A DNA stretch of 45,322 nucleotides, taken from contig OZ237753.1 in NCBI GenBank assembly GCA_965178125.1, positions 1,054,001-1,099,322 of the forward strand, read 5' to 3'. The translations under genes and the position numbers were made by a program. Position 1 is the first letter of the stretch. Each line of letters opens with the position of its first letter. This DNA comes from Bilabrum cf. latius (Eukaryota). Of the stretch, positions 1 through 45,322 are shown piece by piece. The notes beneath the pieces are model-generated. The model did not search any database. It was not told the DNA's origin and saw only the letters and a program-made list of their open reading frames with translations.

Positions 1-1119
1 GTGATCTCACGGGACGACAAGGACGAGAGCAAGTTCAAGCTGCTGGTGGAGGGCATCTCGCTGCTGCAGGTCATGGGCACGCCGGGCGTGGATGGCCTCA
101 GGACCATATCGAACCACATCATCGAGGTCAAGAACACGCTGGGGATCGAGGCGGCCCGGGGGCAGATCATGAAGGAACTGAACCGGACGTACGGGTCGTA
201 CGGCATCGGCATCGACCCGCGGCACCTCATGCTGCTGGCTGACGTGATGACCTACCGCGCCGAAGTCCTGGGCATCACGAGGTTCGGGATCGCACGTATG
301 AAGGAGAGCGTGCTGATGCTGGCCTCCTTCGAGAAGACCCCCGACCACCTTTTCGACGCCGCGCTGCACTCCAAGGTGGATCGCATCGCGGGTGTCTCCG
401 AGTGCATCGTCACCGGCAGGCCCTGCAACCTAGGCACGGGGGCATTCCGAATCCAGATGATGCCATCCGAACTGCCAACTGCCAAACAGCAGCGCAAGGC
501 GAGGGCGCAGCGCAAGCGAGACCGGTCGCAGATGGAGGCTACCCTCGGCGCCCAGCCGTGGAGGACCCCGGCGCCCCCTGCAGACGTGCAGATCTCAAGG
601 GTGTTGCCCGCGCCCCGGCCGCTCTTGCTCCAGCCAACTCGCGACTCGGCCCCGCTCGCCAGCGTGCGGGCGCAGCGGGAGCGGCTGCGCTCCGTGAGCA
701 CAGACCTGAGCGGCCGAGGGAGTCTCCGGGGGGTGTCGGCTGGGTCCGTGGAGGCAGTTCCGCTGCCGCTCTCCAGGAGAGATTCGGTGGTCTCTGCTGG
801 ATTCGGGGACCTGCCTACCGGACATGGGGGCAGCCCCCGACTTGGGTCGGCCTCGGATGCGGCTGCCAGTGGAGCCAGAGTCAGGGCGGGGGCGGGGGCG
901 GGGGCGGGGGCGGGTGAGGGTGGTGCAGCAGGAGGATCGTCTGAGGCGGAGGGAGGGAGGTCGCTGCGGCCCAGCAGACCGCGCCGGTCTCGGTCTGCTT
1001 CGCTGGCGGACTTTCCTCCTGTAAGCGAAGCCGCCACCCGAGAAGCAGCGGGCGCGCCTGGCAAGGACAAGGCCCTACTCAGCGCGTTCCCATCGGTTGC
1101 AGAGGAAGAGGACAGGTGA
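1..1119 (+). CDS. RPC1: RNA polymerase III largest subunit (RPC1), 3' part; gene begins upstream of the window; long low-complexity C-terminal tail
   Basis: Motifs [58 protein letters not shown] and GVSECIVTG are typical of the RPC1/POLR3A C-terminus; ends TGA at 1117-1119. Confidence 0.93.
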
Positions 1120-25054: not shown

Positions 25055-26760
25055 ATGCCAAAGCGTTTCTCAGGCAATGATCTAGGAGGCTTATCGTTTA
25101 CTTCGTCAGAAAGGTGAGTGCTGTGACAAACTGCGCATACTACACGAAATAATGTTGATCCTCAATATTTCCGGAGTAGTCTTCGCGTTCGATTGATCAT
25201 CTATTTTTGCGCAGCAAAACCGGATTAAAGCGACCGAGTCAAAAGGGTGGTGGTCCACCTAAGCGAGCATTTAGGTACCGAGCCGGCAAGGTCCCTGATT
25301 GGGCGCAACAGGACACTGTAGGGCTTGCGGGGCAGGCTTCGAAGCCCCCCACACTACCGGAACAGCGCTCGAAATTGCCTCCACGTCAGAGTCCCGACCA
25401 GTCGTCTACTTAGAGTACAGCATAGGGTCAAGTTGATCTTGAACCCGTGGGAGGTGTGGCCGAGTATACGTCGGAGAGAGGTGGTGTAAGTATCCCAGGC
25501 GAACGCTCCCCCCCGCAAGTACAGCAGTCTCCCCACTCACACCCTTCGGCAGTGCCTTAGAATCAATCAAATATAGACTCAGAGACGAGTACGAGCAGCC
25601 CGGATCCCGACTCAGATGATAATGGCACCAGTTCATCCGATGACGAAGCCGACGAGCTGGCTGCCCGTCGAGCGAGGATACTGGCAAGAAAGTAGGCGGC
25701 AGTAGCTGGACTTGTTCCAGCGTCTAGCCACGTGTTAGCATCAGCGACTCATTCGCCTGGTCCGTCCACTGCAGCAGCGGCTGCATCAGGGACACGAGCT
25801 GACACTCGACGTGCCACGGACCGGGAGCACCTGTCGCCCAGCTCTAGCAGCGGCGACAGCAGCGGGTCTGATAGCGATAGTGATAGCGATAGTGATAGTG
25901 ATAGTGATAGTGATAGTGATAGTGATAGTGAAAATGAGAGCAGGATGGCCTTTGGTCGGTTCCGCCGCCGACGCGACAGGTCCACAGTGAGGGAGCGGGA
26001 GGCCGAGGCGGCCCTGGAGGAAGCCCGGGCAGCGGCTGCGGCTGAACTGCAGGCGGAGCGCAAGTAGCGCAGCAAGCGTCTCGTTGCGCAGAGGCTAAGA
26101 GAGGAGGAGGAGGCCGCCGCCGCCGCTGCTAAGGCATCAGCCACTGCTGCCCATGGTCGGCCGGATGACACGGACCTCCCCCAGGAGGAGGAGGCTGACT
26201 TCGAGAGGTGGAGGGTGAGGGAGCTCCAGAGGGCGGTGAAGGACTGGAGGGAGAGACATGGTACCGGAAGATCTAGTGAAGCCGATGTAGCAGATCCAAA
26301 TATTAATGCCAGGGGGGGGGCGAACAACAACCGCACTGGCCCTGGTCCTGCATCTGGCTCTGGTTCAGGCCCTGGCAGGCCATCGAGAGGGTTCATGCAG
26401 AAGTACTACCACCGCGGTGCTTTCTACATGGACGATGACTCGGTTGCATAGGACCCTAGCGACGTGAGGCACAAGGCCAGCGAGTATGCAGCCGGGCGCA
26501 CTGGCTAGGACCTAGGCATGAACAAGGTGCTTATGCCCAAGATGATGCAGGTCAGGGACTTTGGCAGGAGGAGCCGCAGCAAATGGACACACCTTTCGAA
26601 CGAAGACACATCGGCAGAGGGCGAGCGCTTGCGAGCTCGACTAGCCCAGCGAATGGCGGATGATGCCAAGCAGGGACTTGCATCCCAGTCCATCCACGTG
26701 CGACGTGCTGCCGAGACGGCCATAGAAGAGGCAGAGACCCGTCGATCTGGCCGTGGGTGA
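25055..26760 (+). CDS. MFAP1: MFAP1/Spp381 spliceosomal B-complex protein; intron 25114-25214; last gene before the telomeric region
   Basis: RYRAGKVPDWA, DDTD..EEEADFERWRVRELQR, FMQKYYHRGAFY, NKVLMPKMMQVRDFGRRSRSKWTHLSNEDT; 7 in-frame TAGs (25411, 25423, 25558, 25693, 26065, 26449, 26506); ends TGA. Confidence 0.9.
25870..25930 (+). repeat. (GATAGY)n coding microsatellite giving a (DS)n tract in MFAP1
   Basis: About 10 tandem GATAGC/GATAGT units. Confidence 0.85.
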
Positions 26761-26880
26761 CCGTCCTCCCATTGGTTTGGTCACAGCAATGTATCAATAG
26801 TGCGGCCAAACAGGATTCTCTTGACCTCTTCAATATCCCGGATACGCTTATCACCGCCTATCCACCATCCCAGGGTTCTA

Positions 26881-27236
26881 GGCCCCATCCACCGCGCTGC
26901 CCACCAACCCGCTGACCACTCAACCACCAATCTGGGCCCCATCCACCGCGCTGTCCACCAACCCGCTGGCCACCCAACCACCACTCTGGGCCCAATCCAC
27001 CGCGCTGCCCACCAACCCGCTGACCACTCAACCACCAATCTGGGCCCCATCCACCGCGCTGCCCACCAACCCGCTGGCCACCCAACCACCACTCTGGGCC
27101 CAATCCACCGCGCTGCCCACCAACCCGCTGACCACTCAACCACCAATCTGGGCCCCATCCACCGCGCTGTCCACCAACCCGCTGGCCACCCAACCACCAA
27201 TCTGGGCCCCATCCACCGCGCTGCCCACCAACCCGC
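26881..27236. repeat. 54-bp subtelomeric minisatellite, ~6.6 copies, alternating variants (108-bp dimer)
   Basis: Unit GGCCCCATCCACCGCGCTGCCCACCAACCCGCTGACCACTCAACCACCAATCTG recurs at 26881, 26935 and onward; cut off by TTAGGG at 27237. Confidence 0.92.
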
Positions 27237-27281
27237 TTAGGGTTTAGGGTTAGGGTTAGGATTAGGGTTAGGGTTAGGGTT
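27237..27281 (+). repeat. Innermost short telomeric tract with variant units (TTTAGGG, TTAGGA)
   Basis: About 7 TTAGGG-like units. Confidence 0.9.
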
Positions 27282-28058
27282 AAGGGCACGCTGGAGCTGC
27301 AGGCTGGTTGCGATGAGGAGCAGAGCCTGGAGGCGCTCATGAATGGGCAGCTGTCGACCTTGCGCGATACAGTGGGCAACATGTGCATGCAGGAGCTGCC
27401 AAGCCACAACGCAGCGCGCATCATGGCAACATGTGGGTCGAAGGGCAGTGTTCTGAATATCTGCCAGATGACGGCTTGCGTGGGGCAGCAGAACGTAGGG
27501 GGCAAGCGCATTCCCGAGGGATTCGTGAGCCGCACCCTCCCCATTTTTAGAACAGGGGCCAAGGAGCCTGCGGCCAAAGGGTTCGTTGCGAATAGCTTCC
27601 GGTCCGGTCTGAATGCCACCGAGTTTTTCTTCCATACGATGGGTGGCCGGGAGGGGCTCGTGGATACCGCGGTGAAGACGGCCGAGACGGGGTACATGCA
27701 GCGCCGGATGGTCAAGGCGCTGGAGGACCTGTCTGTGCAGTACGACAACACCGTGCGGACGTCGAATGGAGACGTGGTGCAGACAATCTACGGGGATGAC
27801 TCCCTTGATCCGGGCCAGATGGAGAGCAATGGCAGGCCGGTGCACCTGGACCGGCTGTGGACGAACGTGCAGAATGACATGCCGTGCCCTGAGGAGCCAC
27901 CTTTGGGCAAGACGGAGATCGGGGAGGTGGTGGCCGCGGAGATGAAGTCGAACGTGTGGAAACCTTTGAACACGGACAGTTAGGGCAGTCGCGGGGCGCT
28001 AGCTGGTGGTCCCAAGTTCTGCGAAGACGTCAAAGAGTTCATGACAGGTCTGGCAGGC
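27282..28058 (+). pseudogene. RPC1: Internal fragment of RPC1 (funnel/bridge-helix region) flanked by telomeric repeats
   Basis: [91 protein letters not shown]; the frame is open from the junction and continues through TAG 27981 to KFCEDVKEFMTGLAG; both ends cut by TTAGGG. Confidence 0.9.
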
Positions 28059-28627
28059 TAGGGGTTAGGGTAGGGTTAGGGTTAGGGTTAGGGTTAGGGT
28101 TAGGGTTAGGGTTAGGGTTAGGGTTAGGGTTAGGGTTAGGGTTAGGGTTAGGGTTAGGGTTAGGGTTAGGGTTAGGGTTAGGGTTAGGGTTAGGGTTAGG
28201 GTTAGGGTTAGGGTTAGGGTTAGGGTTAGGGTTAGGGTTAGGGTTAGGGTTAGGGTTAGGGTTAGGGTTAGGGTTAGGGTTAGGGTTAGGGTTAGGGTTA
28301 GGGTTAGGGTTAGGGTTAGGGTTAGGGTTAGGGTTAGGGTTAGGGTTAGGGTTAGGGTTAGGGTTAGGGTTAGGGTTAGGGTTAGGGTTAGGGTTAGGGT
28401 TAGGGTTAGGGTTAGGGTTAGGGTTAGGGTTAGGGTTAGGGTTAGGGTTAGGGTTAGGGTTAGGGTTAGGGTTAGGGTTAGGGTTAGGGTTAGGGTTAGG
28501 GTTAGGGTTAGGGTTAGGGTTAGGGTTAGGGTTAGGGTTAGGGTTAGGGTTAGGGTTAGGGTTAGGGTTAGGGTTAGGGTTAGGGTTAGGGTTAGGGTTA
28601 GGGTTAGGGTTAGGGTTAGGGTTAGGG

Positions 28628-29725
28628 TATCTAATATAAAGTCAGGGACAGGGTCGGGGAAAAAATATTTTCATCTTCATTTTTTTGTCGAAAATGTGCC
28701 CTCTGCGATCTCAGCAACTAGAATAGGTATGAAGATGATTCAAACTGTTTTGGGATGGCCTAGGGCCATATCATGGGGCAAATGTTCCCCAGGTTCCGTT
28801 TTGACCGCGCGGCGACGATACTGGCTGATGAAGATTTACATGCCGAAAATGTGCCCTCTGCGATCTCAGCAACTAGAATAGGTATGAAGATGATTCAAAC
28901 TGTTTTGGGATGGCCTAGGGCCATATCATGGGGCAAATGTTCCCCAGGTTCCGTTTTGACCGCGCGGCGACGATACTGGCTGATGAAGATTTACATGCCG
29001 AAAATGTGCCCTCTGCGATCTCAGCAACTAGAATAGGTATGAAGATGATTCAAACTGTTTTGGGACGGCCTAGGGCCATATCATGGGGCAAATGTTCCCC
29101 AGGTTCCGTTTTGACCGCGCGGCGACGATACTGGCTGATGAAGATTTACATGCCGAAAATGTGCCCTCTGCGATCTCAGCAACTAGAATAGGTATGAAGA
29201 TGATTCAAACTGTTTTGGGACGGCCTAGGGCCATATCATGGGGCAAATGTTCCCCAGGTTCCGTTTTGACCGCGCGGCGACGATACTGGCTGATGAAGAT
29301 TTACATGCCGAAAATGTGCCCTCTGCGATCTCAGCAACTAGAATAGGTATGAAGATGATTCAAACTGTTTTGGGACGGCCTAGGGCCATATCATGGGGCA
29401 AATGTTTGCCAGGGTTTGTTTACATCATGCAGCGGAAGTATGGAGTTTTCAAACTCACCCGGTGGGGGTTTGCAAACCTACCCAAGGGGGTCTACAAACC
29501 TACACTGCTTGGTTCGAGAAGCTAGCGGTTATTGACCGATGTTAGATGCCATGGCTCGTTCTACCTAGCTATTTGTATGCGTTAAACCCACTTTGCTAGA
29601 TACATTGCTTTGATATCAGGCTTCCATTGGGTGATGGTCAAGACTAAACAGAATGCCTCCTGGCTCGTACAAATGCGTCCTAAATTGGATCACTGGCAGG
29701 CACTTTGGCAAACTCCTCTCACAAG
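28628..29725. mobile_element. Telomere-inserted element copy 1 (155-bp subfamily A, ~4.6 units, plus unique tail)
   Basis: Common head at 28628; units contain GTGCCCTCTGCGATCTCAGCAACTAGAATAGG; tail ends ...CTCCTCTCACAAG. Confidence 0.75.
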
Positions 29726-29830
29726 GGTTTAGGGTTAGGGTTAGGGTTAGGGTTAGGGTTAGGGTTAGGGTTAGGGTTAGGGTTAGGGTTAGGGTTAGGG
29801 TTAGGGTTAGGGTTAGGGTTAGGGTTAGGG

Positions 29831-31295
29831 TATCTAATATAAAGTCAGGGACAGGGTCGGGGAAAAAAAATTTTCATCTTCACTTTTTGTCGAAAAAATG
29901 CGCGCGACGATCTCGGCAACCAGATGAGATATGAGGACCGTTCAAACTGCATCGGGACGGCCTGGGGGTACAATGTTGGGCAAATGTTCCCCAGGTTCCG
30001 TTTATACCGCGCGGCGACAATATGGCTGGACGAAGATTGTCATGCAGAAAAAATGCGCGCGACGATCTCGGCAACCAGATGAGATATGAAGACCGTTCAA
30101 ACTGCATCGGGACGGCCTGGGGGTACAATGTGGGGCAAATGTTCCCCAGGTTCCGTTTTGACCGCGCGGCGACAATATGGCTGGACAAAGATTGTCATGC
30201 AGAAAAAATGCGCGCGACGATCTCGGCAACCAGATGAGATATGAAGACCGTTCAAACTGCATCGGGACGGCCTGGGACCACAACAGGGGGCAAATGTTCC
30301 CCAGGTTCCGTTTTGACCGCGCGGCGACAATATGGCTGGACGAAGATTGTCATGCAGAAAAAATGCGCGCGACGATCTCGGCAACCAGATGAGATATGAA
30401 GACCGTTCAAACTGCATCGGGACGGCCTGGGGGTACAATGTGGGGCAAATGTTCCCCAGGTTCCGTTTTGACCGCGCGGCGACAATATGGCTGGACGAAG
30501 ATTGTCATGCAGAAAAAATGCGCGCGACGATCTCGGCAACCAGATGAGATATGAAGACCGTTCAAACTGCATCGGGACGGCCTGGGGGTACAATGTGGGG
30601 CAAATGTTCCCCAGGTTCCGTTTTGACCGCGCGGCGACAATATGGCTGGACGAAGATTGTCATGCAGAAAAAATGCGCGCGACGATCTCGGCAACCAGAT
30701 GAGATATGAAGACCGTTCAAACTGCATCGGGACGGCCTGGGGGTACAATGTGGGGCAAATGTTCCCCAGGTTCCGTTTTGACCGCGCGGCGACAATATGG
30801 CTGGACGAAGATTGTCATGCAGAAAAAATGCGCGCGACGATCTCGGCAACCAGATGAGATATGAAGACCGTTCAAACTGCATCGGGACGGCCTGGGGGTA
30901 CAATGTGGGGCAAATGTTCCCCAGGTTCCGTTTTGACCGCGCGGCGACAATATGGCTGGACGAAGATTGTCATGCAGAAAAAATGCGCGCGACGATCTCG
31001 GCAACCAGATGAGATATGAAGACCGTTCAAACTGCATCGGGACGGCCTGGGGGTACAATGTGGGGCAAATGTTCCCCAGGTTCCGTTTTGACCGCGCGGC
31101 GACAATATGGCTGGACGAAGATTGTCATGCAGAAAAAATGCGCGCGACGATCTCGGCAACCAGATGAGATATGAAGACCGTTCAAACTGCATCGGGACGG
31201 CCTGGGGGTACAATGTGGGGCAAATGTTCCCCAGGTTCCGTTTTGACCGCGCGGCGACAATATGGCTGGACGAAGATTGTCATGCAGAAAAAATG
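29831..31295. mobile_element. Element copy 2 (subfamily B, ~9 units, ends inside the array)
   Basis: Common head; units contain ATGCGCGCGACGATCTCGGCAACCAGATGAG. Confidence 0.75.
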
Positions 31296-31728
31296 GGTAG
31301 GGTTAGGGTTAGGGTTAGGGTTAGGGTTAGGGTTAGGGTTAGGGTTAGGGTTAGGGTTAGGGTTAGGGTTAGGGTTAGGGTTAGGGTTAGGGTTAGGGTT
31401 AGGGTTAGGGTTAGGGTTAGGGTTAGGGTTAGGGTTAGGGTTAGGGTTAGGGTTAGGGTTAGGGTTAGGGTTAGGGTTAGGGTTAGGGTTAGGGTTAGGG
31501 TTAGGGTTAGGGTTAGGGTTAGGGTTAGGGTTAGGGTTAGGGTTAGGGTTAGGGTTAGGGTTAGGGTTAGGGTTAGGGTTAGGGTTAGGGTTAGGGTTAG
31601 GGTTAGGGTTAGGGTTAGGGTTAGGGTTAGGGTTAGGGTTAGGGTTAGGGTTAGGGTTAGGGTTAGGGTTAGGGTTAGGGTTAGGGTTAGGGTTAGGGTT
31701 AGGGTTAGGGTTAGGGTTAGGGTTAGGG

Positions 31729-33263
31729 TATCTAATATAAAGTCAGGGACAGGGTCGGGGAAAAAATATTTTCATCTTCAATATTTGTCGAAAAACGACG
31801 TGCTACGATCTCGGTAACTACAGGTGATATGAAGACCGTTCAAACTGCATCGGGACGGCCTGGGGGCACAACATGGGCCAAATGTTCCCCAGGTTCCGTT
31901 CTGGCCGCGTGGCGCCGATATGGGTGTATGAAGAATTTCACACCGAAAAACGACGTGCTACGATCTCGGCAACTACAGGTGATATGAAGACCGTTCAAAC
32001 TGCATCGGGACGGCCTGGGGGCACAACATGGGCCAAATGTTCCCCAGGTTCCGTTCTGGCCGCGCGGCGCCGATATGGGTGTATGAAGAATTTCACACCG
32101 AAAAACGACGTGCTACGATCTCGGCAACTACAGGTGATATGAAGACCGTTCAAACTGCATCGGGACGGCCTGGGGGCACAACATGGGCCAAATGTTCCCC
32201 AGGTTCCGTTCTGGCCGCGCGGCGCCGATATGGGTGTATGAAGAATTTCACACCGAAAAACGACGTGCTACGATCTCGGCAACTACAGGTGATATGAAGA
32301 CCGTTCAAACTGCATCGGGACGGCCTGGGGGCACAACATGGGCCAAATGTTCCCCAGGTTCCGTTCTGGCCGCGCGGCGCCGATATGGGTGTATGAAGAA
32401 TTTCACACCGAAAAACGACGTGCTACGATCTCGGCAACTACAGGTGATATGAAGACCGTTCAAACTGCATCGGGACGGCCTGGGGGCACAACATGGGCCA
32501 AATGTTCCCCAGGTTCCGTTCTGGCCGCGCGGCGCCGATATGGGTGTATGAAGAATTTCACACCGAAAAACGACGTGCTACGATCTCGGCAACTACAGGT
32601 GATATGAAGACCGTTCAAACTGCATCGGGACGGCCTGGGGGCACAACATGGGCCAAATGTTCCCCAGGTTCCGTTCTGGCCGCGCGGCGCCGATATGGGT
32701 GTATGAAGAATTTCACACCGAAAAACGACGTGCTACGATCTCGGCAACTACAGGTGATATGAAGACCGTTCAAACTGCATCGGGACGGCCTGGGAGCACA
32801 ACATGGGCCAAATGTTCCCCAGGTTCCGTTCTGGCCGCGCGGCGCCGATATGGGTGTATGAAGATTTGCATGTTTATTCAATATGCATGGTTTATCTGTC
32901 AATTGTAGAATGGGTATGGTGTACATGACAGTTGTATTTGCTGTGTGGATTGCTTTGATCTAAGGTATTAACTGGTTGACACGTCAAGACTCAACAGAAT
33001 GCCTCCCGGCTCCTAATGCTGCGTCCGAATGGGTCAATGGCAGACACTTTGGCAAACTCCTCTCACAAGCTGGCCCAGCTGCCACTGACCTCAATTGCCG
33101 TCCCCCTGCCTGCCTCTCACTCGTCACCGAAAGCTGCTAGGAGCGCTTCCACAGCGTCGACGTCTGCCGCATTGAGATCTCCTTTCGCCGTCTTCTCGAG
33201 GGCCGTCATCAGGTTTGCGAACATTTCCAACTCGCGGTCCCTCTCTTCAATTGTTGCCTCGGT
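31729..33263. mobile_element. Element copy 3 (subfamily C, ~7 units, longest tail, including a minus-strand ORF end)
   Basis: Common head; units contain ACGACGTGCTACGATCTCGGCAACTACAGG; tail homologous to the copy 1 tail, then ~195 extra bp. Confidence 0.75.
33117..33263 (-). pseudogene. 5'-truncated C-terminal ORF fragment at the distal end of copy 3
   Basis: TEATIEERDRELEMFANLMTALEKTAKGDLNAADVDAVEALLAAFGDE-TGA, open up to the telomere junction, protein-like helical composition. Confidence 0.5.
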
Positions 33264-33646
33264 TTAGGTTAGGGTTAGGGTTAGGGTTAGGGTTAGGGTT
33301 AGGGTTAGGGTTAGGGTTAGGGTTAGGGTTAGGGTTAGGGTTAGGGTTAGGGTTAGGGTTAGGGTTAGGGTTAGGGTTAGGGTTAGGGTTAGGGTTAGGG
33401 TTAGGGTTAGGGTTAGGGTTAGGGTTAGGGTTAGGGTTAGGGTTAGGGTTAGGGTTAGGGTTAGGGTTAGGGTTAGGGTTAGGGTTAGGGTTAGGGTTAG
33501 GGTTAGGGTTAGGGTTAGGGTTAGGGTTAGGGTTAGGGTTAGGGTTAGGGTTAGGGTTAGGGTTAGGGTTAGGGTTAGGGTTAGGGTTAGGGTTAGGGTT
33601 AGGGTTAGGGTTAGGGTTAGGGTTAGGGTTAGGGTTAGGGTTAGGG

Positions 33647-34956
33647 TATCTAATATAAAGTCAGGGACAGGGTCGGGGAAAAAAAATTTTCATCTTCACT
33701 TTTTGTCGAAAAAATGCGCGCGACGATCTCGGCAACCAGATGAGATATGAGGACCGTTCAAACTGCATCGGGACGGCCTGGGGGTACAATGTTGGGCAAA
33801 TGTTCCCCAGGTTCCGTTTATACCGCGCGGCGACAATATGGCTGGACGAAGATTGTCATGCAGAAAAAATGCGCGCGACGATCTCGGCAACCAGATGAGA
33901 TATGAAGACCGTTCAAACTGCATCGGGACGGCCTGGGGGTACAATGTGGGGCAAATGTTCCCCAGGTTCCGTTTTGACCGCGCGGCGACAATATGGCTGG
34001 ACAAAGATTGTCATGCAGAAAAAATGCGCGCGACGATCTCGGCAACCAGATGAGATATGAAGACCGTTCAAACTGCATCGGGACGGCCTGGGACCACAAC
34101 AGGGGGCAAATGTTCCCCAGGTTCCGTTTTGACCGCGCGGCGACAATATGGCTGGACGAAGATTGTCATGCAGAAAAAATGCGCGCGACGATCTCGGCAA
34201 CCAGATGAGATATGAAGACCGTTCAAACTGCATCGGGACGGCCTGGGGGTACAATGTGGGGCAAATGTTCCCCAGGTTCCGTTTTGACCGCGCGGCGACA
34301 ATATGGCTGGACGAAGATTGTCATGCAGAAAAAATGCGCGCGACGATCTCGGCAACCAGATGAGATATGAAGACCGTTCAAACTGCATCGGGACGGCCTG
34401 GGGGTACAATGTGGGGCAAATGTTCCCCAGGTTCCGTTTTGACCGCGCGGCGACAATATGGCTGGACGAAGATTGTCATGCAGAAAAAATGCGCGCGACG
34501 ATCTCGGCAACCAGATGAGATATGAAGACCGTTCAAACTGCATCGGGACGGCCTGGGGGTACAATGTGGGGCAAATGTTCCCCAGGTTCCGTTTTGACCG
34601 CGCGGCGACAATATGGCTGGACGAAGATTGTCATGCAGAAAAAATGCGCGCGACGATCTCGGCAACCAGATGAGATATGAAGACCGTTCAAACTGCATCG
34701 GGACGGCCTGGGGGTACAATGTGGGGCAAATGTTCCCCAGGTTCCGTTTTGACCGCGCGGCGACAATATGGCTGGACGAAGATTGTCATGCAGAAAAAAT
34801 GCGCGCGACGATCTCGGCAACCAGATGAGATATGAAGACCGTTCAAACTGCATCGGGACGGCCTGGGGGTACAATGTGGGGCAAATGTTCCCCAGGTTCC
34901 GTTTTGACCGCGCGGCGACAATATGGCTGGACGAAGATTGTCATGCAGAAAAAATG
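33647..34956. mobile_element. Element copy 4 (subfamily B, ~8 units; same variants and end point as copy 2)
   Basis: Shares the diagnostic unit variants and the GCAGAAAAAATG-GGTAGGG junction with copy 2; 155 bp shorter. Confidence 0.75.
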
Positions 34957-35059
34957 GGTAGGGTTAGGGTTAGGGTTAGGGTTAGGGTTAGGGTTAGGGT
35001 TAGGGTTAGGGTTAGGGTTAGGGTTAGGGTTAGGGTTAGGGTTAGGGTTAGGGTTAGGG

Positions 35060-36054
35060 TATCTAATATAAAGTCAGGGACAGGGTCGGGGAAAAAATAT
35101 TTTCATCTTCACTTTTTGTCGAAAAAATACAACATAGGATCTCGGCAACCACAGGAGATATGAAGACCGTTGAAACGGCATTAGGACCGCCTAGGGGCAC
35201 AACATGGGGCAAATGCTCCCCAGGTTCCGTTTTTGTCGCGCGGCGCCGATATGGATCGATGAAGATTTACATGCTGCAAAAATACAACATAGGATCTCGG
35301 CAACCACAGGAGATATGAAGACCGTTGAAACGGCATTAGGACCGCCTAGGGGCACAACATGGGGCAAATGTTCCCCAGGTTCCGTTTTTGTCGCGCGGCG
35401 CCGATATGGATCGATGAAGATTTACATGCTGCAAAAATACAACATAGGATCTCGGCAACCACAGGAGATATGAAGACCGTTGAAACGGCATTAGGACCGC
35501 CTAGGGGCACAACATGGGGCAAATGTTCCCCAGGTTCCGTTTTTGTCGCGCGGTGCCGATATGGATCGATGAAGATTTACATGCTGCAAAAATACAACAT
35601 AGGATTTCGGCAACCACAGGAGATATGAAGACCGTTGAAACGGCATTAGGACCGCCTAGGGGCACAACATGGGGCAAATGTTCCCCAGGTTCCGTTTTTG
35701 TCGCGCGGTGCCGATATGGATCGATGAAGATTTACATGCTGCAAAAATACAACATAGGATCTCGGCAACCACAGGAGATATGAAGACCGTTGAAACGGCA
35801 TTAGGACCGCCTGGGGGCACAACATGGGGCAAATGTTCCCCAGGTTCCGTTTTTGTCGCGCGGCGCCGATATGGATCGATGAAGATTTACATGCTGCAAA
35901 AATACAACATAGGATCTCGGCAACCACAGGAGATATGAAGACCGTTGAAACGGCATTAGGACCGCCTAGGGGCACAACATGGGGCAAATGTTCCCCAGGT
36001 TCCGTTTTTGTCGCGCGGCGCCGATATGGATCGATGAAGATTTACATGCTGCAA
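35060..36054. mobile_element. Element copy 5 (subfamily D, ~6 units, followed by G10)
   Basis: Common head; units contain AATACAACATAGGATCTCGGCAACCACAGGAG. Confidence 0.75.
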
Positions 36055-36365
36055 GGGGGGGGGGTTAAGGGTTAGGGTTAGGGTTAGGGTTAGGGTTAGG
36101 GTTAGGGTTAGGGTTAGGGTTAGGGTTAGGGTTAGGGTTAGGGTTAGGGTTAGGGTTAGGGTTAGGGTTAGGGTTAGGGTTAGGGTTAGGGTTAGGGTTA
36201 GGGTTAGGGTTAGGGTTAGGGTTAGGGTTAGGGTTAGGGTTAGGGTTAGGGTTAGGGTTAGGGTTAGGGTTAGGGTTAGGGTTAGGGTTAGGGTTAGGGT
36301 TAGGGTTAGGGTTAGGGTTAGGGTTAGGGTTAGGGTTAGGGTTAGGGTTAGGGTTAGGGTTAGGG

Positions 36366-37360
36366 TATCTAATATAAAGTCAGGGACAGGGTCGGGGAAA
36401 AAATATTTTCATCTTCACTTTTTGTCGAAAAAATACAACATAGGATCTCGGCAACCACAGGAGATATGAAGACCGTTGAAACGGCATTAGGACCGCCTAG
36501 GGGCACAACATGGGGCAAATGCTCCCCAGGTTCCGTTTTTGTCGCGCGGCGCCGATATGGATCGATGAAGATTTACATGCTGCAAAAATACAACATAGGA
36601 TCTCGGCAACCACAGGAGATATGAAGACCGTTGAAACGGCATTAGGACCGCCTAGGGGCACAACATGGGGCAAATGTTCCCCAGGTTCCGTTTTTGTCGC
36701 GCGGCGCCGATATGGATCGATGAAGATTTACATGCTGCAAAAATACAACATAGGATCTCGGCAACCACAGGAGATATGAAGACCGTTGAAACGGCATTAG
36801 GACCGCCTAGGGGCACAACATGGGGCAAATGTTCCCCAGGTTCCGTTTTTGTCGCGCGGTGCCGATATGGATCGATGAAGATTTACATGCTGCAAAAATA
36901 CAACATAGGATTTCGGCAACCACAGGAGATATGAAGACCGTTGAAACGGCATTAGGACCGCCTAGGGGCACAACATGGGGCAAATGTTCCCCAGGTTCCG
37001 TTTTTGTCGCGCGGTGCCGATATGGATCGATGAAGATTTACATGCTGCAAAAATACAACATAGGATCTCGGCAACCACAGGAGATATGAAGACCGTTGAA
37101 ACGGCATTAGGACCGCCTGGGGGCACAACATGGGGCAAATGTTCCCCAGGTTCCGTTTTTGTCGCGCGGCGCCGATATGGATCGATGAAGATTTACATGC
37201 TGCAAAAATACAACATAGGATCTCGGCAACCACAGGAGATATGAAGACCGTTGAAACGGCATTAGGACCGCCTAGGGGCACAACATGGGGCAAATGTTCC
37301 CCAGGTTCCGTTTTTGTCGCGCGGCGCCGATATGGATCGATGAAGATTTACATGCTGCAA
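36366..37360. mobile_element. Element copy 6 (duplicate of copy 5)
   Basis: 1306-bp period, same variants and G10 junction. Confidence 0.75.
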
Positions 37361-37671
37361 GGGGGGGGGGTTAAGGGTTAGGGTTAGGGTTAGGGTTAGG
37401 GTTAGGGTTAGGGTTAGGGTTAGGGTTAGGGTTAGGGTTAGGGTTAGGGTTAGGGTTAGGGTTAGGGTTAGGGTTAGGGTTAGGGTTAGGGTTAGGGTTA
37501 GGGTTAGGGTTAGGGTTAGGGTTAGGGTTAGGGTTAGGGTTAGGGTTAGGGTTAGGGTTAGGGTTAGGGTTAGGGTTAGGGTTAGGGTTAGGGTTAGGGT
37601 TAGGGTTAGGGTTAGGGTTAGGGTTAGGGTTAGGGTTAGGGTTAGGGTTAGGGTTAGGGTTAGGGTTAGGG

Positions 37672-38666
37672 TATCTAATATAAAGTCAGGGACAGGGTCG
37701 GGGAAAAAATATTTTCATCTTCACTTTTTGTCGAAAAAATACAACATAGGATCTCGGCAACCACAGGAGATATGAAGACCGTTGAAACGGCATTAGGACC
37801 GCCTAGGGGCACAACATGGGGCAAATGCTCCCCAGGTTCCGTTTTTGTCGCGCGGCGCCGATATGGATCGATGAAGATTTACATGCTGCAAAAATACAAC
37901 ATAGGATCTCGGCAACCACAGGAGATATGAAGACCGTTGAAACGGCATTAGGACCGCCTAGGGGCACAACATGGGGCAAATGTTCCCCAGGTTCCGTTTT
38001 TGTCGCGCGGCGCCGATATGGATCGATGAAGATTTACATGCTGCAAAAATACAACATAGGATCTCGGCAACCACAGGAGATATGAAGACCGTTGAAACGG
38101 CATTAGGACCGCCTAGGGGCACAACATGGGGCAAATGTTCCCCAGGTTCCGTTTTTGTCGCGCGGTGCCGATATGGATCGATGAAGATTTACATGCTGCA
38201 AAAATACAACATAGGATTTCGGCAACCACAGGAGATATGAAGACCGTTGAAACGGCATTAGGACCGCCTAGGGGCACAACATGGGGCAAATGTTCCCCAG
38301 GTTCCGTTTTTGTCGCGCGGTGCCGATATGGATCGATGAAGATTTACATGCTGCAAAAATACAACATAGGATCTCGGCAACCACAGGAGATATGAAGACC
38401 GTTGAAACGGCATTAGGACCGCCTGGGGGCACAACATGGGGCAAATGTTCCCCAGGTTCCGTTTTTGTCGCGCGGCGCCGATATGGATCGATGAAGATTT
38501 ACATGCTGCAAAAATACAACATAGGATCTCGGCAACCACAGGAGATATGAAGACCGTTGAAACGGCATTAGGACCGCCTAGGGGCACAACATGGGGCAAA
38601 TGTTCCCCAGGTTCCGTTTTTGTCGCGCGGCGCCGATATGGATCGATGAAGATTTACATGCTGCAA
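37672..38666. mobile_element. Element copy 7 (duplicate of copy 5)
   Basis: 1306-bp period, same variants and G10 junction. Confidence 0.75.
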
Positions 38667-38875
38667 GGGGGGGGGGTTAAGGGTTAGGGTTAGGGTTAGG
38701 GTTAGGGTTAGGGTTAGGGTTAGGGTTAGGGTTAGGGTTAGGGTTAGGGTTAGGGTTAGGGTTAGGGTTAGGGTTAGGGTTAGGGTTAGGGTTAGGGTTA
38801 GGGTTAGGGTTAGGGTTAGGGTTAGGGTTAGGGTTAGGGTTAGGGTTAGGGTTAGGGTTAGGGTTAGGGTTAGGG

Positions 38876-39652
38876 TATCTAATATAAAGTCAGGGACAGG
38901 GTCGGGGAAAAAATATTTTCATCTTCAATATTTGTCGAAAAACGACGTGCTACGATCTCGGCAACTACAGGTGATATGAAGACCGTTCAAACTGCATCGG
39001 GACGGCCTGGGGGCACAACATGGGCCAAATGTTCCCCAGGTTCCGTTCTGGCCGCGCGGCGCCGATATGGGTGTATGAAGAATTTCACACCGAAAAACGA
39101 CGTGCTACGATCTCGGCAACTACAGGTGATATGAAGACCGTTCAAACTGCATCGGGACGGCCTGGGGGCACAACATGGGCCAAATGTTCCCCAGGTTCCG
39201 TTCTGGCCGCGCGGCGCCGATATGGGTGTATGAAGAATTTCACACCGAAAAACGACGTGCTACGATCTCGGCAACTACAGGTGATATGAAGACCGTTCAA
39301 ACTGCATCGGGACGGCCTGGGGGCACAACATGGGCCAAATGTTCCCCAGGTTCCGTTCTGGCCGCGCGGCGCCGATATGGGTGTATGAAGAATTTCACAC
39401 CGAAAAACGACGTGCTACGATCTCGGCAACTACAGGTGATATGAAGACCGTTCAAACTGCATCGGGACGGCCTGGGGGCACAACATGGGCCAAATATTCC
39501 CCAGGTTCCGTTCTGGCCGCGCGGCGCTGATATGGGTGTATGAAGATTTGCATGTCTATTCAATATGCATGGTTTATCTGTCAATTGTAGAATGGGGATG
39601 GTGTACATGACAGTTGTATTTGCTGTGTGGATTGCTTTGATCTAAGGTATTA
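38876..39652. mobile_element. Element copy 8 (subfamily C, ~4 units, partial tail)
   Basis: Tail matches copy 3 up to TCTAAGGTATTA, then telomeric repeats. Confidence 0.75.
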
Positions 39653-39901
39653 GGGTTAAGGTTAGGGTTAGGGTTAGGGTTAGGGTTAGGGTTAGGGTTA
39701 GGGTTAGGGTTAGGGTTAGGGTTAGGGTTAGGGTTAGGGTTAGGGTTAGGGTTAGGGTTAGGGTTAGGGTTAGGGTTAGGGTTAGGGTTAGGGTTAGGGT
39801 TAGGGTTAGGGTTAGGGTTAGGGTTAGGGTTAGGGTTAGGGTTAGGGTTAGGGTTAGGGTTAGGGTTAGGGTTAGGGTTAGGGTTAGGGTTAGGGTTAGG
39901 G

Positions 39902-41656
39902 TATCTAATATAAAGTCAGGGACAGGGTCGGGGAAAAAAAATTTTCATCTTCACTTTTTGTCGAAAAAATGCGCGCGACGATCTCGGCAACCAGATGAGA
40001 TATGAGGACCGTTCAAACTGCATCGGGACGGCCTGGGGGTACAATGTGGGGCAAATGTTCCCCAGGTTCCGTTTTGACCGCGCGGCGACAATATGGCTGG
40101 ACGAAGATTGTCATGCAGAAAAAATGCGCGCAACGATCTCGGCAACCAGATGAGATATGAAGACTGTTCAAACTGCATCGGGACGGCCTGGGGGTACAAT
40201 GTTAGGCAAATGTTCCCCAGGTTCCGTTTATACCGCGCGGCGACAATATGGCTGGACGAAGATTGTCATGCAGAAAAAATGCGCGCGACGATCTCGGCAA
40301 CCAGATGAGATATGAAGACCGTTCAAACTGCATCGGGACGGCCTGGGACCACAACTGGGGGCAAATGTTCCCCAGGTTCCGTTTATACCGCGCGGCGACA
40401 ATATGGCTGGACGAAGATTGTCATGCAGAAAAAATGCGCGCGGCGATCTCGGCAACCAGATGAGATATGAAGACCGTTCAAACTGCATCGGGACGGCCTG
40501 GGACCACAACTGGGGGCAAATGTTCCCCAGGTTCCGTTTATACCGCGCGGCGACAATATGGCTGGACGAAGATTGTCATGCAGAAAAAATGCGCGCGACG
40601 ATCTCGGCAACCAGATGAGATATGAAGACCGTTCATACTGCATCGGGACGGCCTGGGGGTACAATGTGGGGCAAATGTTCCCCAGATTCCGTTTTGACCG
40701 CGCGGCGACAGTATGGGGGGACGAAGATTTTCAGGCAGAAAAAATGCGCGCGGCGATCTCGGCAACCACAGGAGATATGAAGACCGTTCAAACTGCATCG
40801 GGACGGCCTGGGACCACAACTGGGGGCAAATGTTCCCCAGGTTCCGTTTATACCGCGCGGCGACAATATGGCTGGACGAAGATTGTCATGCAGAAAAAAT
40901 GCGCGCGGCGATCTCGGCAACCAGATGAGATATGAAGACCGTTCAAACTGCATCGGGACGGCCTGGGACCACAACTGGGGGCAAATGTTCCCCAGGTTCC
41001 GTTTATTCCGCGCGGCGACAATATGGCTGGACGAAGATTGTCATGCAGAAAAAATGCGCGCGACGATCTCGGCAACCAGATGAGATATGAAGACCGTTCA
41101 TACTGCATCGGGACGGCCTGGGGGTACAATGTGGGGCAAATGTTCCCCAGATTCCGTTTTGACCGCGCGGCGACAGTATGGGGGGACGAAGATTTTCAGG
41201 CAGAAAAAATGCGCGCGGCGATCTCGGCAACCACAGGAGATATGAAGACCGTTCAAACTGCATCGGGACGGCCTGGGACCACAACAGGGGGCAAATGTTC
41301 CCCAGGTTCCGTTTATACCGCGCGGCGACAGTATGGTGGGACGAAGATTGTCATGCAGAAAAAATGCGCGCGGCGATCTCGGCAACCAGATGAGATATGA
41401 AGACCGTTCAAACTGCATCGGGACGGCCTGGGACCACAACTGGGGGCAAATGTTCCCCGTGATTCTATTACATCAAGCATTGCAAGTATGGGGTTTGCAC
41501 ACCTACATGGTTGGGTTTGCATACGTACATGGGTTCGGGTTAGGTAAGAGGTTTTCCTTAGGGGCGTTCATTAGCTGTAAATGAGATTTCTTGATTTCAG
41601 CCGTTCATTCGCACTTTGAGTCATCATCATGTGTCATGTGTGCGAAGTTTGGAGAA
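39902..41656. mobile_element. Element copy 9 (subfamily B variant, ~9.6 heterogeneous units, plus unique tail)
   Basis: Common head; B-type units with a 465-bp internal duplication; tail related to the start of the copy 1 tail. Confidence 0.75.
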
Positions 41657-42039
41657 TAGGGTTAGGGTTAGGGTTAGGGTTAGGGTTAGGGTTAGGGTTA
41701 GGGTTAGGGTTAGGGTTAGGGTTAGGGTTAGGGTTAGGGTTAGGGTTAGGGTTAGGGTTAGGGTTAGGGTTAGGGTTAGGGTTAGGGTTAGGGTTAGGGT
41801 TAGGGTTAGGGTTAGGGTTAGGGTTAGGGTTAGGGTTAGGGTTAGGGTTAGGGTTAGGGTTAGGGTTAGGGTTAGGGTTAGGGTTAGGGTTAGGGTTAGG
41901 GTTAGGGTTAGGGTTAGGGTTAGGGTTAGGGTTAGGGTTAGGGTTAGGGTTAGGGTTAGGGTTAGGGTTAGGGTTAGGGTTAGGGTTAGGGTTAGGGTTA
42001 GGGTTAGGGTTAGGGTTAGGGTTAGGGTTAGGGTTAGGG

Positions 42040-42816
42040 TATCTAATATAAAGTCAGGGACAGGGTCGGGGAAAAAATATTTTCATCTTCAATATTTGTC
42101 GAAAAACGACGTGCTACGATCTCGGCAACTACAGGTGATATGAAGACCGTTCAAACTGCATCGGGACGGCCTGGGGGCACAACATGGGCCAAATGTTCCC
42201 CAGGTTCCGTTCTGGCCGCGCGGCGCCGATATGGGTGTATGAAGAATTTCACACCGAAAAACGACGTGCTACGATCTCGGCAACTACAGGTGATATGAAG
42301 ACCGTTCAAACTGCATCGGGACGGCCTGGGGGCACAACATGGGCCAAATGTTCCCCAGGTTCCGTTCTGGCCGCGCGGCGCCGATATGGGTGTATGAAGA
42401 ATTTCACACCGAAAAACGACGTGCTACGATCTCGGCAACTACAGGTGATATGAAGACCGTTCAAACTGCATCGGGACGGCCTGGGGGCACAACATGGGCC
42501 AAATGTTCCCCAGGTTCCGTTCTGGCCGCGCGGCGCCGATATGGGTGTATGAAGAATTTCACACCGAAAAACGACGTGCTACGATCTCGGCAACTACAGG
42601 TGATATGAAGACCGTTCAAACTGCATCGGGACGGCCTGGGGGCACAACATGGGCCAAATATTCCCCAGGTTCCGTTCTGGCCGCGCGGCGCTGATATGGG
42701 TGTATGAAGATTTGCATGTCTATTCAATATGCATGGTTTATCTGTCAATTGTAGAATGGGGATGGTGTACATGACAGTTGTATTTGCTGTGTGGATTGCT
42801 TTGATCTAAGGTATTA
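42040..42816. mobile_element. Element copy 10 (duplicate of copy 8)
   Basis: 3164-bp period. Confidence 0.75.
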
Positions 42817-43065
42817 GGGTTAAGGTTAGGGTTAGGGTTAGGGTTAGGGTTAGGGTTAGGGTTAGGGTTAGGGTTAGGGTTAGGGTTAGGGTTAGGGTTA
42901 GGGTTAGGGTTAGGGTTAGGGTTAGGGTTAGGGTTAGGGTTAGGGTTAGGGTTAGGGTTAGGGTTAGGGTTAGGGTTAGGGTTAGGGTTAGGGTTAGGGT
43001 TAGGGTTAGGGTTAGGGTTAGGGTTAGGGTTAGGGTTAGGGTTAGGGTTAGGGTTAGGGTTAGGG

Positions 43066-44820
43066 TATCTAATATAAAGTCAGGGACAGGGTCGGGGAAA
43101 AAAAATTTTCATCTTCACTTTTTGTCGAAAAAATGCGCGCGACGATCTCGGCAACCAGATGAGATATGAGGACCGTTCAAACTGCATCGGGACGGCCTGG
43201 GGGTACAATGTGGGGCAAATGTTCCCCAGGTTCCGTTTTGACCGCGCGGCGACAATATGGCTGGACGAAGATTGTCATGCAGAAAAAATGCGCGCAACGA
43301 TCTCGGCAACCAGATGAGATATGAAGACTGTTCAAACTGCATCGGGACGGCCTGGGGGTACAATGTTAGGCAAATGTTCCCCAGGTTCCGTTTATACCGC
43401 GCGGCGACAATATGGCTGGACGAAGATTGTCATGCAGAAAAAATGCGCGCGACGATCTCGGCAACCAGATGAGATATGAAGACCGTTCAAACTGCATCGG
43501 GACGGCCTGGGACCACAACTGGGGGCAAATGTTCCCCAGGTTCCGTTTATACCGCGCGGCGACAATATGGCTGGACGAAGATTGTCATGCAGAAAAAATG
43601 CGCGCGGCGATCTCGGCAACCAGATGAGATATGAAGACCGTTCAAACTGCATCGGGACGGCCTGGGACCACAACTGGGGGCAAATGTTCCCCAGGTTCCG
43701 TTTATACCGCGCGGCGACAATATGGCTGGACGAAGATTGTCATGCAGAAAAAATGCGCGCGGCGATCTCGGCAACCAGATGAGATATGAAGACCGTTCAT
43801 ACTGCATCGGGACGGCCTGGGGGTACAATGTGGGGCAAATGTTCCCCAGATTCCGTTTTGACCGCGCGGCGACAGTATGGGGGGACGAAGATTTTCAGGC
43901 AGAAAAAATGCGCGCGGCGATCTCGGCAACCACAGGAGATATGAAGACCGTTCAAACTGCATCGGGACGGCCTGGGACCACAACTGGGGGCAAATGTTCC
44001 CCAGGTTCCGTTTATACCGCGCGGCGACAATATGGCTGGACGAAGATTGTCATGCAGAAAAAATGCGCGCGGCGATCTCGGCAACCAGATGAGATATGAA
44101 GACCGTTCAAACTGCATCGGGACGGCCTGGGACCACAACTGGGGGCAAATGTTCCCCAGGTTCCGTTTATTCCGCGCGGCGACAATATGGCTGGACGAAG
44201 ATTGTCATGCAGAAAAAATGCGCGCGACGATCTCGGCAACCAGATGAGATATGAAGACCGTTCATACTGCATCGGGACGGCCTGGGGGTACAATGTGGGG
44301 CAAATGTTCCCCAGATTCCGTTTTGACCGCGCGGCGACAGTATGGGGGGACGAAGATTTTCAGGCAGAAAAAATGCGCGCGGCGATCTCGGCAACCACAG
44401 GAGATATGAAGACCGTTCAAACTGCATCGGGACGGCCTGGGACCACAACAGGGGGCAAATGTTCCCCAGGTTCCGTTTATACCGCGCGGCGACAGTATGG
44501 TGGGACGAAGATTGTCATGCAGAAAAAATGCGCGCGGCGATCTCGGCAACCAGATGAGATATGAAGACCGTTCAAACTGCATCGGGACGGCCTGGGACCA
44601 CAACTGGGGGCAAATGTTCCCCGTGATTCTATTACATCAAGCATTGCAAGTATGGGGTTTGCACACCTACATGGTTGGGTTTGCATACGTACATGGGTTC
44701 GGGTTAGGTAAGAGGTTTTCCTTAGGGGCGTTCATTAGCTGTAAATGAGATTTCTTGATTTCAGCCGTTCATTCGCACTTTGAGTCATCATCATGTGTCA
44801 TGTGTGCGAAGTTTGGAGAA
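43066..44820. mobile_element. Element copy 11 (near-duplicate of copy 9)
   Basis: 3164-bp period; at least one substitution and one junction difference versus copy 9. Confidence 0.75.
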
Positions 44821-45096
44821 TAGGGTTAGGGGTTAGGGTTAGGGTTAGGGTTAGGGTTAGGGTTAGGGTTAGGGTTAGGGTTAGGGTTAGGGTTAGGGTT
44901 AGGGTTAGGGTTAGGGTTAGGGTTAGGGTTAGGGTTAGGGTTAGGGTTAGGGTTAGGGTTAGGGTTAGGGTTAGGGTTAGGGTTAGGGTTAGGGTTAGGG
45001 TTAGGGTTAGGGTTAGGGTTAGGGTTAGGGTTAGGGTTAGGGTTAGGGTTAGGGTTAGGGTTAGGGTTAGGGTTAGGGTTAGGGTTAGGGTTAGGG

Positions 45097-45139
45097 TATC
45101 TAATATAAAGTCAGGGACAGGGTCGGGGAAAAAATATTT
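45097..45139. mobile_element. Element copy 12: head only (~43 bp)
   Basis: TATCTAATATAAAGTCAGGGACAGGGTCGGGGAAAAAATATTT followed by AGGTTAGGG. Confidence 0.75.
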
Positions 45140-45322
45140 AGGTTAGGGTTAGGGTTAGGGTTAGGGTTAGGGTTAGGGTTAGGGTTAGGGTTAGGGTTAG
45201 GGTTAGGGTTAGGGTTAGGGTTAGGGTTAGGGTTAGGGTTAGGGTTAGGGTTAGGGTTAGGGTTAGGGTTAGGGTTAGGGTTAGGGTTAGGGTTAGGGTT
45301 AGGGTTAGGGTTAGGGTTAGGG
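45138..45322 (+). repeat. Final (TTAGGG)n tract, probable chromosome end
   Basis: Pure TTAGGG to the end of the window, G-strand running 5'->3' outward. Confidence 0.85.

What the first reader, a model, noticed from the sequence alone, without database searches (positions are those of the whole stretch)
27282..28058. Piece of the RPC1 gene embedded in the telomere
Seen: 777 bp of uninterrupted RPC1 coding sequence between TTAGGG tracts, in the same orientation as the RPC1 gene whose 3' end is at 1-1119. The corresponding segment of that gene should lie just upstream of the window. Both junctions have telomere-like microhomology (TT-AAGGG-CACG; GGC-TAGGG). Inference: sense orientation on the G-strand argues against telomere-primed reverse transcription of mRNA, which would give antisense. 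It favours the 3' overhang looping back ~28-30 kb, invading at AAGGG, copying, and being re-capped.
Basis: partly seen in the sequence, partly recalled or inferred. Interest (0 to 1): 0.78.

Follow-up and report, generated by a model that had tools for sequence, protein, structure and literature searches.

The report
Polymerase gene piece copied into telomere
A 774-base piece of an essential RNA polymerase gene has been copied into the telomere of its own chromosome, starting next to a chance telomere-like word in the gene, most likely as a repair accident of a kind already known from worms and fungi.

Summary
The fragment is real in the assembly. Window 27283-28056 (774 bp) is a 99.5% copy (4 substitutions) of RPC1 coding DNA 29,156 bp upstream on the same strand. 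The right junction has only loose homology and resembles new telomere addition. The parent is intronless here, so the intron test is void. The in-frame TAG is shared with the parent; this genome appears to read UAG as an amino acid, probably Gln. The copy sits behind a 46-bp tract, under 17 kb of telomeric elements whose arrays are near-identical on other chromosome ends. It was the only host-gene piece among 147 capped inter-tract segments at 75 ends. Best reading (0.6): a short telomere end invaded the TTAGGG in RPC1 in cis, DNA polymerase copied it, and telomerase re-capped it. Rivals: end-joining capture, antisense-RNA templating, assembly artefact. Read contigs carry the copy's alleles, but the junctions could not be tested. 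It resembles a TALT reservoir or MoTeR-type terminal duplication: a new instance of a known kind.

The parts
1..1119 (+). 3' end of the parental RPC1 gene (stop TGA); the donor segment lies 1,874 to 1,101 bases before window base 1
25696..26760 (+). last host reading frame before the telomere (MFAP1 family, two of its TAG codons inside the matched stretch's end); context only
26877..27236 (.). subtelomeric 54-bp tandem repeat, 6.7 copies
27237..27282 (+). short innermost telomere tract (46 bp, with variant units); 4th shortest of 58 innermost tracts, median 624 bp
27274..27286 (+). left junction: TTAGGG-TTA-AGGG in the copy against TTAGGG-AGGG in the donor (10 matching bases around a 3-base bulge)
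27283..28056 (+). 774-bp copy of RPC1 coding DNA; substitutions 27371 G>A (silent), 27951 C>A (H>N), 27989 C>T (silent), 28044 G>A (A>T)
27981..27983 (+). in-frame TAG shared with the parent (probably a sense codon in this genome)
28057..28627 (+). right junction and tract of about 570 bp that starts with irregular units (TAGGGG, TAGGG)
28628..45136 (+). array of 12 telomeric elements with a fixed proximal head, 155-bp repeats (absent from the last, 40-bp unit) and ragged distal ends, separated by TTAGGG tracts
31295..36971 (+). part of the array shared with the right end of contig C22 (99.75% over 5,690 bp)
38674..45322 (+). part of the array shared with the right end of contig C4 (99.9% over 6,655 bp)

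Best explanation
A one-off, DNA-templated insertion made in cis. Shown: the copy, its donor 29,156 bp upstream on the same strand, a TTAGGG-AGGG seed at the donor's left breakpoint, a 46-bp proximal tract and irregular repeats after the copy. Inferred: this telomere eroded or broke down to about 7 repeats; its G-rich 3' end looped back (or invaded the sister chromatid) and paired with the TTAGGG-AGGG in RPC1; a DNA polymerase extended it towards the telomere (microhomology-primed break-induced replication); synthesis stopped, or the product later broke, after 774 bases; telomerase added new repeats; element arrays were then added by copying between ends. The piece lacks the gene's promoter and both of its ends and is most likely a non-functional relic.
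For: Donor seed exactly at the breakpoint, p about 7e-4. Donor on the same chromosome and strand, 29 kb from the junction in a 48.6-Mb genome; this is the geometry of a loop-back (inference). Proximal tract 4th shortest of 58. TERT is present. Irregular units in the first 36 bases are usual here: 74 of 106 tracts, against 10 of 106 in the last 36 (the tract pattern inflates the first figure). Arrays with the same break points are shared between ends, so DNA is copied between telomeres. 4 of 8 headless element pieces begin right after GGG or AGGG in their donor. The copy's letters occur in read contigs of runs X1 (3 of 3 listed places) and X2 (1 of 3), and not in X5 or X7 (0 of 3 each).
Against: No read was shown to span either junction: the tool skipped both repeat-containing ends. 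The left junction holds 3 bases (TTA) that simple priming would not give. The other 4 of 8 headless pieces show 0-2 bases of homology, and all 8 could be internal deletions instead. Sequence alone cannot separate copying from ligation of a ready-made fragment. The genome has many reverse transcriptases (84 RVT_1 matches) besides TERT. The assembly has 7 chromosome tips where unrelated DNA follows a tract, so false joins at telomeres probably occur in it.
Confidence: 0.6

Rival explanations
1. End-joining capture: a free RPC1 fragment (from a broken sister chromatid or a small circle) was joined to a broken telomere through the AGGG / TTAGGG microhomology, and the far end was capped by telomerase or joined to the old tract.
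For: The 3 extra bases at the left junction and the scrambled right junction fit error-prone joining. Rahnama et al. invoke NHEJ with internal sequences at MoTeR ends, and Kim et al. 2021 ascribe templated insertions after telomere dysfunction to polymerase theta.
Against: A ready-made fragment need not come from 29 kb away on the same strand, nor break beside one of only 5 TTAGGG in 36.8 kb. The parent is intact.
Confidence: 0.17
2. RNA-templated capture: the telomere 3' end primed reverse transcription on an antisense RPC1 RNA, which carries the complement of TTAGGG at this place, by TERT or a retroelement enzyme.
For: The arrays have fixed proximal heads and ragged distal ends, as telomeric retroelements do (pattern recalled for Athena-type elements, read in passages for MoTeR). 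An RVT_1 element lies 10 kb from one chromosome end. The parent has no introns here, so an RNA step leaves no trace.
Against: It needs antisense RNA and internal priming. There is no poly(A). No reverse transcriptase was found in the three element ORFs scanned. The closeness of the donor is unexplained.
Confidence: 0.13
3. Assembly artefact: a chimeric read placed an RPC1 piece (possibly from a second haplotype) into the telomere.
For: 7 of the 75 ends with a tract have uncapped unrelated DNA after it; two encode bacterial-type proteins by Pfam and two match nowhere else in the assembly. Junctions untested. Heterozygous sites could also explain the two sets of letters in the reads.
Against: Those tips are terminal and uncapped; this piece is internal, capped and followed by 17 kb of array. 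A chimera would need two joins, a donor 29 kb away and a breakpoint at TTAGGG. Contig depth in X2 is 1.31-fold higher where more of the contig is duplicated; 1.23 is expected if duplicated and 1.0 if not (weak, since contig depth is not copy number).
Confidence: 0.06
4. A selected, functional fragment (a telomeric transcript or a truncated RPC1 peptide).
For: With TAG read as an amino acid the frame stays open into the tract, and the last host gene points towards it.
Against: 2 of 4 substitutions change amino acids. Only one copy was found. Runs X5 and X7 from other studies show only parental letters (contigs show presence, not absence).
Confidence: 0.04

Closest known systems
C. elegans TALT reservoir (Seo et al. 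2015, PMC4595603; Kim et al. 2019, PMC6581047; passages read)
   Same: [quoted passage not shown]
   Different: TALT donors are flanked by interstitial telomere-like sequences (their screen asked for seven repeats); here the seed is one hexamer plus AGGG inside an essential gene. TALTs are amplified (five tandem copies in CB4856, all ends in survivors); this piece was found once.
Terminal duplication of internal sequences at MoTeR telomeres of Magnaporthe oryzae (Rahnama et al., 10.1101/845669; passages read)
   Same: Telomeres interrupted by element arrays; an internal sequence from about 157 kb away duplicated at an end, presumed to start from a de-capped end with fewer than 10 repeats; BIR among arrays.
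   Different: MoTeR1 encodes a reverse transcriptase; none was found in the element ORFs scanned here. That study could not resolve the boundary of its duplication; here the boundary and seed are resolved to the base.
Templated insertions and FoSTeS after telomere dysfunction (Kim et al. 2021, PMC8034613; passages read)
   Same: Insertions copied from nearby DNA on the same chromosome, with microhomology at junctions.
   Different: Those arose in ALT survivor lines across the genome; this one sits inside the telomere tract of a genome with TERT.
Yeast Y' elements (recalled; mentioned only in a passage of PMC4595603)
   Same: For the neighbouring arrays: elements between internal telomere tracts, with minisatellites and a long ORF pointing to the end, spread by recombination.
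   Different: Y' encodes a helicase (recalled); the 2,328-aa ORF here has no Pfam or PDB match and only near-identical hits among protein representatives.

Membership tests
TALT reservoir | [quoted passage not shown] | tested here: met
   donor 29,156 bp upstream on C19, 99.5% identical
TALT reservoir | donor flanked by interstitial telomere-like sequences in the same orientation | tested here: not met
   one TTAGGG plus AGGG on the left, a G-rich run on the right, no repeat tract
TALT reservoir | amplified or copied to other chromosome ends | tested here: not met
   2 matches in the genome, donor and copy
TALT reservoir | serves as template for telomerase-independent maintenance | not testable with these tools
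   needs a telomerase knockout; a TERT gene is present
MoTeR-type terminal duplication | telomeres interrupted by arrays of elements with fixed proximal and ragged distal ends | tested here: met
   136 of 147 capped segments start with one of three head types
MoTeR-type terminal duplication | the telomeric element encodes a reverse transcriptase | tested here: inconclusive
   no Pfam or significant PDB match for the ORFs scanned and no RVT_1 match inside the fetched elements; no full-length H3 or H4 element was read, and a distant enzyme could be missed
Retrocopy made by telomere-primed reverse transcription of mRNA | antisense on the G-rich strand | tested here: not met
   sense on the G-rich strand
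Retrocopy made by telomere-primed reverse transcription of mRNA | loss of parental introns | tested here: inconclusive
   the donor stretch has no introns
Retrocopy made by telomere-primed reverse transcription of mRNA | poly(A) or mRNA 3' end at the priming junction | tested here: not met
   the fragment starts and ends inside the coding sequence, with no A-run
RPC1 (RNA polymerase III largest subunit) | closer to RPC1 than to RPB1 or RPA1 | tested here: met
   1107 and 1071 bits to two RPC1 chains against at most 686

The most novel reading that the evidence does not exclude
The telomeres of this organism are built by telomerase plus a DNA-level copying system in which element families without a recognisable reverse transcriptase (one with an orphan 2,328-aa ORF) spread by 3'-end invasion at TTAGGG. 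The RPC1 piece is then an off-target product of that system: a natural TALT-like reservoir seeded by a single hexamer in an essential gene, and now open to being copied to other ends like the elements behind it.
Probability: 0.2. Interest if true: 0.7.

Novelty: new member of a known kind. Interest (0 to 1): 0.4.

Why it matters
It is a base-resolved natural record of a short telomere using one chance TTAGGG inside a gene as a primer site. That shows how little homology may be needed to move unique DNA into a telomere, the first step proposed for TALT reservoirs. As one probably non-functional relic with precedents in worms and fungi, its weight is moderate. The surroundings may matter more: telomeric element families with no detectable reverse transcriptase, and an apparent reassignment of UAG alone, which PMC11687900 describes as rare.

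Tried and rejected
Junction support from reads: not obtainable; all four runs are contigs and both repeat-containing ends were skipped. Intron test: void. A second capture at the C14 left telomere was considered: 1,046 bp of a repeat found mostly on C14 follows an H4 element. It joins at the end of a 250-bp segment present at many loci, so a transposon insertion followed by breakage is the simpler reading; it was not counted. The other unique tail (C10 left) matches one more subtelomeric place at 72% and looks like element sequence. A motif search for tRNA-Gln genes gave 3 hits and no tRNA. Aligning element paralogues did not identify the amino acid for TAG (Gln in 2 of 27 sites). A homolog search did not place the organism (22 hits, 56-75% identity, mostly unnamed). 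The orphan ORF gave no relatives; it was not folded and no atlas result was obtained. Earlier findings of the scan: none in two look-ups. Paper searches; these listings showed no report of an RPC1 piece in a telomere, but the library lacks most subscription papers and no search named RPC1. No supplements were read.

Full report
What is there. The window is the right end of contig C19 of a 48.6-Mb genome. After the last host frame (MFAP1 family) come a 54-bp repeat (26877-27236), a 46-bp TTAGGG tract, the fragment, a tract of about 570 bp and 12 elements separated by tracts. A search of the genome with the fragment gave 2 matches: itself and C19:1052121-1052900. Base by base, window 27283-28056 equals the donor from 1052127 with 4 substitutions, two silent and two changing a residue; the offset is 29,156 bp on the same strand. 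The parent is RPC1, and the fragment covers Rpb1 domain 4 and the start of domain 5. The donor stretch is one open frame without introns.

Junctions. Left: the donor reads CAGT-TTAGGG-AGGG-CACG and the copy TTAGGG-TTA-AGGG-CACG. The donor therefore carries a perfect telomere unit at the breakpoint, and the tract end can pair over 10 bases with a 3-base bulge. TTAGGG occurs 5 times in 36,800 bp on this strand, giving p about 7e-4 for such a coincidence (computed after seeing it). Right: the donor continues GCAG-ACAGGG-TGGGGG and the copy GCAG-GC-TAGGGG-TTAGGG-TAGGG. This is loose at best and resembles other tract starts in this genome: 74 of 106 distinct tracts are irregular in their first 36 bases and 10 of 106 in their last 36 (the way tracts were delimited inflates the first number).

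The stop codon. The fragment has TAG at 27981-27983, but so has the parent, which holds 7 in-frame TAG in 1,932 codons. Among 84 RVT_1 matches in the genome many contain TAG, two TGA and none TAA. A tRNA gene with anticodon CTA lies at C23:907607 in DNA of host-like GC (22 of the 48 tRNA loci were scanned). In an alignment with 20 RPC1 relatives (2 of the 22 hits left out), TAG faces Gln in 13 of 20 rows at one column and in 6 of 20 (8 gaps) at another; the other five columns do not point to Gln. So the frame is probably open in the organism's own code. Gln is likely but not proven: the tRNA's acceptor stem resembles tRNA-Tyr.

Is it real? Four runs were laid. All are contigs and the tool skipped both junction regions, so no junction was tested. 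The X1 contig shows the copy's letters at 3 of 3 listed places and X2 at 1 of 3; X5 and X7, from other studies, show parental letters at all 3. The copy's letters thus exist in reads of two samples of one study; X1 may be the source of the assembly, and heterozygosity could give the same picture. The depth ratio of two X2 contigs is 1.31, against 1.23 expected if duplicated and 1.0 if not, which is weak support. Against this, 7 of 75 ends carry uncapped unrelated DNA after a tract, two with bacterial-type proteins by Pfam. I read these as chimeric tips (inference). The RPC1 piece differs from them in being internal and capped.

Survey of other ends. I read 84 end stretches of contigs C1-C44 (about 5-35 kb each; right ends of C41-C44 not fetched, some arrays only in part). 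75 had a tract. Of 147 segments with a tract on both sides, 136 begin with one of three head types, 8 match element sequence, 2 are under 50 bp, and 1 is RPC1. Of 105 distinct headed segments, 2 had 120 bp or more not seen at another end; one looks like element sequence and one like a transposon insertion. The tract before the RPC1 piece is the 4th shortest of 58 innermost tracts (median 624 bp). Window 31295-36971 and 38674-45322 are 99.75% and 99.9% identical to the ends of C22 and C4, so DNA is copied between telomeres. 4 of 8 headless element pieces start after GGG or AGGG in their donor; the other 4 show little homology. TERT is present. The longest element read has a head, 155-bp repeats, an ORF of about 520 aa on the C-strand, a 2,328-aa ORF on the G-strand and 839-bp repeats. 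No reverse transcriptase was detected in it.

Mechanism. The simplest account (0.6) is that a very short end paired with the TTAGGG-AGGG in RPC1 on the same chromosome, was extended by a DNA polymerase, stopped or broke after 774 bases, and was re-capped by telomerase. The donor, seed, orientation, distance and short tract are shown; invasion, synthesis and healing are inferred. End-joining capture of a free fragment (0.17) gives the same sequence but explains the distance and the seed less well. Reverse transcription of antisense RNA (0.13) is not excluded, since there are no introns to lose. Artefact (0.06) and function (0.04) are unlikely. The four substitutions do not date the event, since such synthesis is error-prone (recalled).

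Comparison. The piece looks like the first step of TALT formation in C. elegans (PMC4595603, PMC6581047; passages) and like terminal duplications at MoTeR telomeres (10.1101/845669; passages); see also PMC8034613 (passages). It fails two TALT features (no flanking interstitial tracts, no amplification), so it is not filed as a TALT. It is a new instance of a telomeric templated insertion, a known kind. Interest 0.4.

Noticed in passing
genome-wide; window 27981-27983; L110:1500-1574 (G000:C23:907607-907679): UAG appears to be a sense codon, probably Gln, while TAA seems to remain a stop: 7 TAG in the RPC1 frame, TAG but no TAA inside 84 RVT_1 matches, and a tRNA gene with anticodon CTA; 22 of 80 long frames end at TAA (mechanical). 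PMC11687900 (passages) calls UAG-only reassignment rare and lists Gln cases in Iotanema and some ciliates. The lineage of this genome was not determined.
   Followed up: partly
window 28628-45136; L090, L027, L139, L033: At least three families of telomere-inserted elements with fixed proximal heads and ragged distal ends (200 exact copies of one head). The longest family has two divergent ORFs (about 520 aa and 2,328 aa); another has a 1,591-aa ORF. None matched Pfam; the 2,328-aa ORF has only near-identical hits among 1.84 billion representatives.
   Followed up: partly
contig tips C14L (L033:1-3441), C15L (L049:1-3802), C30L (L063:1-6566), C35L, C35R, C8R, C27R: Unrelated, uncapped DNA directly after terminal tracts; C30L has a Por secretion tail domain and C15L BNR repeats. 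Probably chimeric reads with bacterial DNA; true capture of prey DNA was not excluded.
   Followed up: partly
L033:4401-5449 (C14 left telomere): 1,046 bp of a repeat concentrated on C14 joined to the end of an H4 element and capped by a tract; it looks like a transposon insertion into a telomeric element followed by healing.
   Followed up: partly
L011 (G000:C14, about 699,000-704,000): Telomere tracts and elements in the middle of contig C14, near a run of N; possibly a scaffolding join of two chromosomes.
   Followed up: no
L026:224-3742 (G000:C37): An RVT_1-bearing ORF of 1,172 aa about 10 kb from a chromosome end, coding on the C-rich strand, with no tract beside it; its C-terminal part looked like a restriction-like endonuclease by eye (recalled pattern, untested).
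   Followed up: partly
L009 (C14 right end): An element copy in which about 110 bp are replaced by a 102-bp telomere tract, after which the element resumes at 100% identity.
   Followed up: no
L086 (C20 right end), L088 (C23 right end): 9-kb tips with 38% and 31% GC and no telomere tract, unlike the host's 55-60%; possibly foreign or organellar DNA.
   Followed up: no
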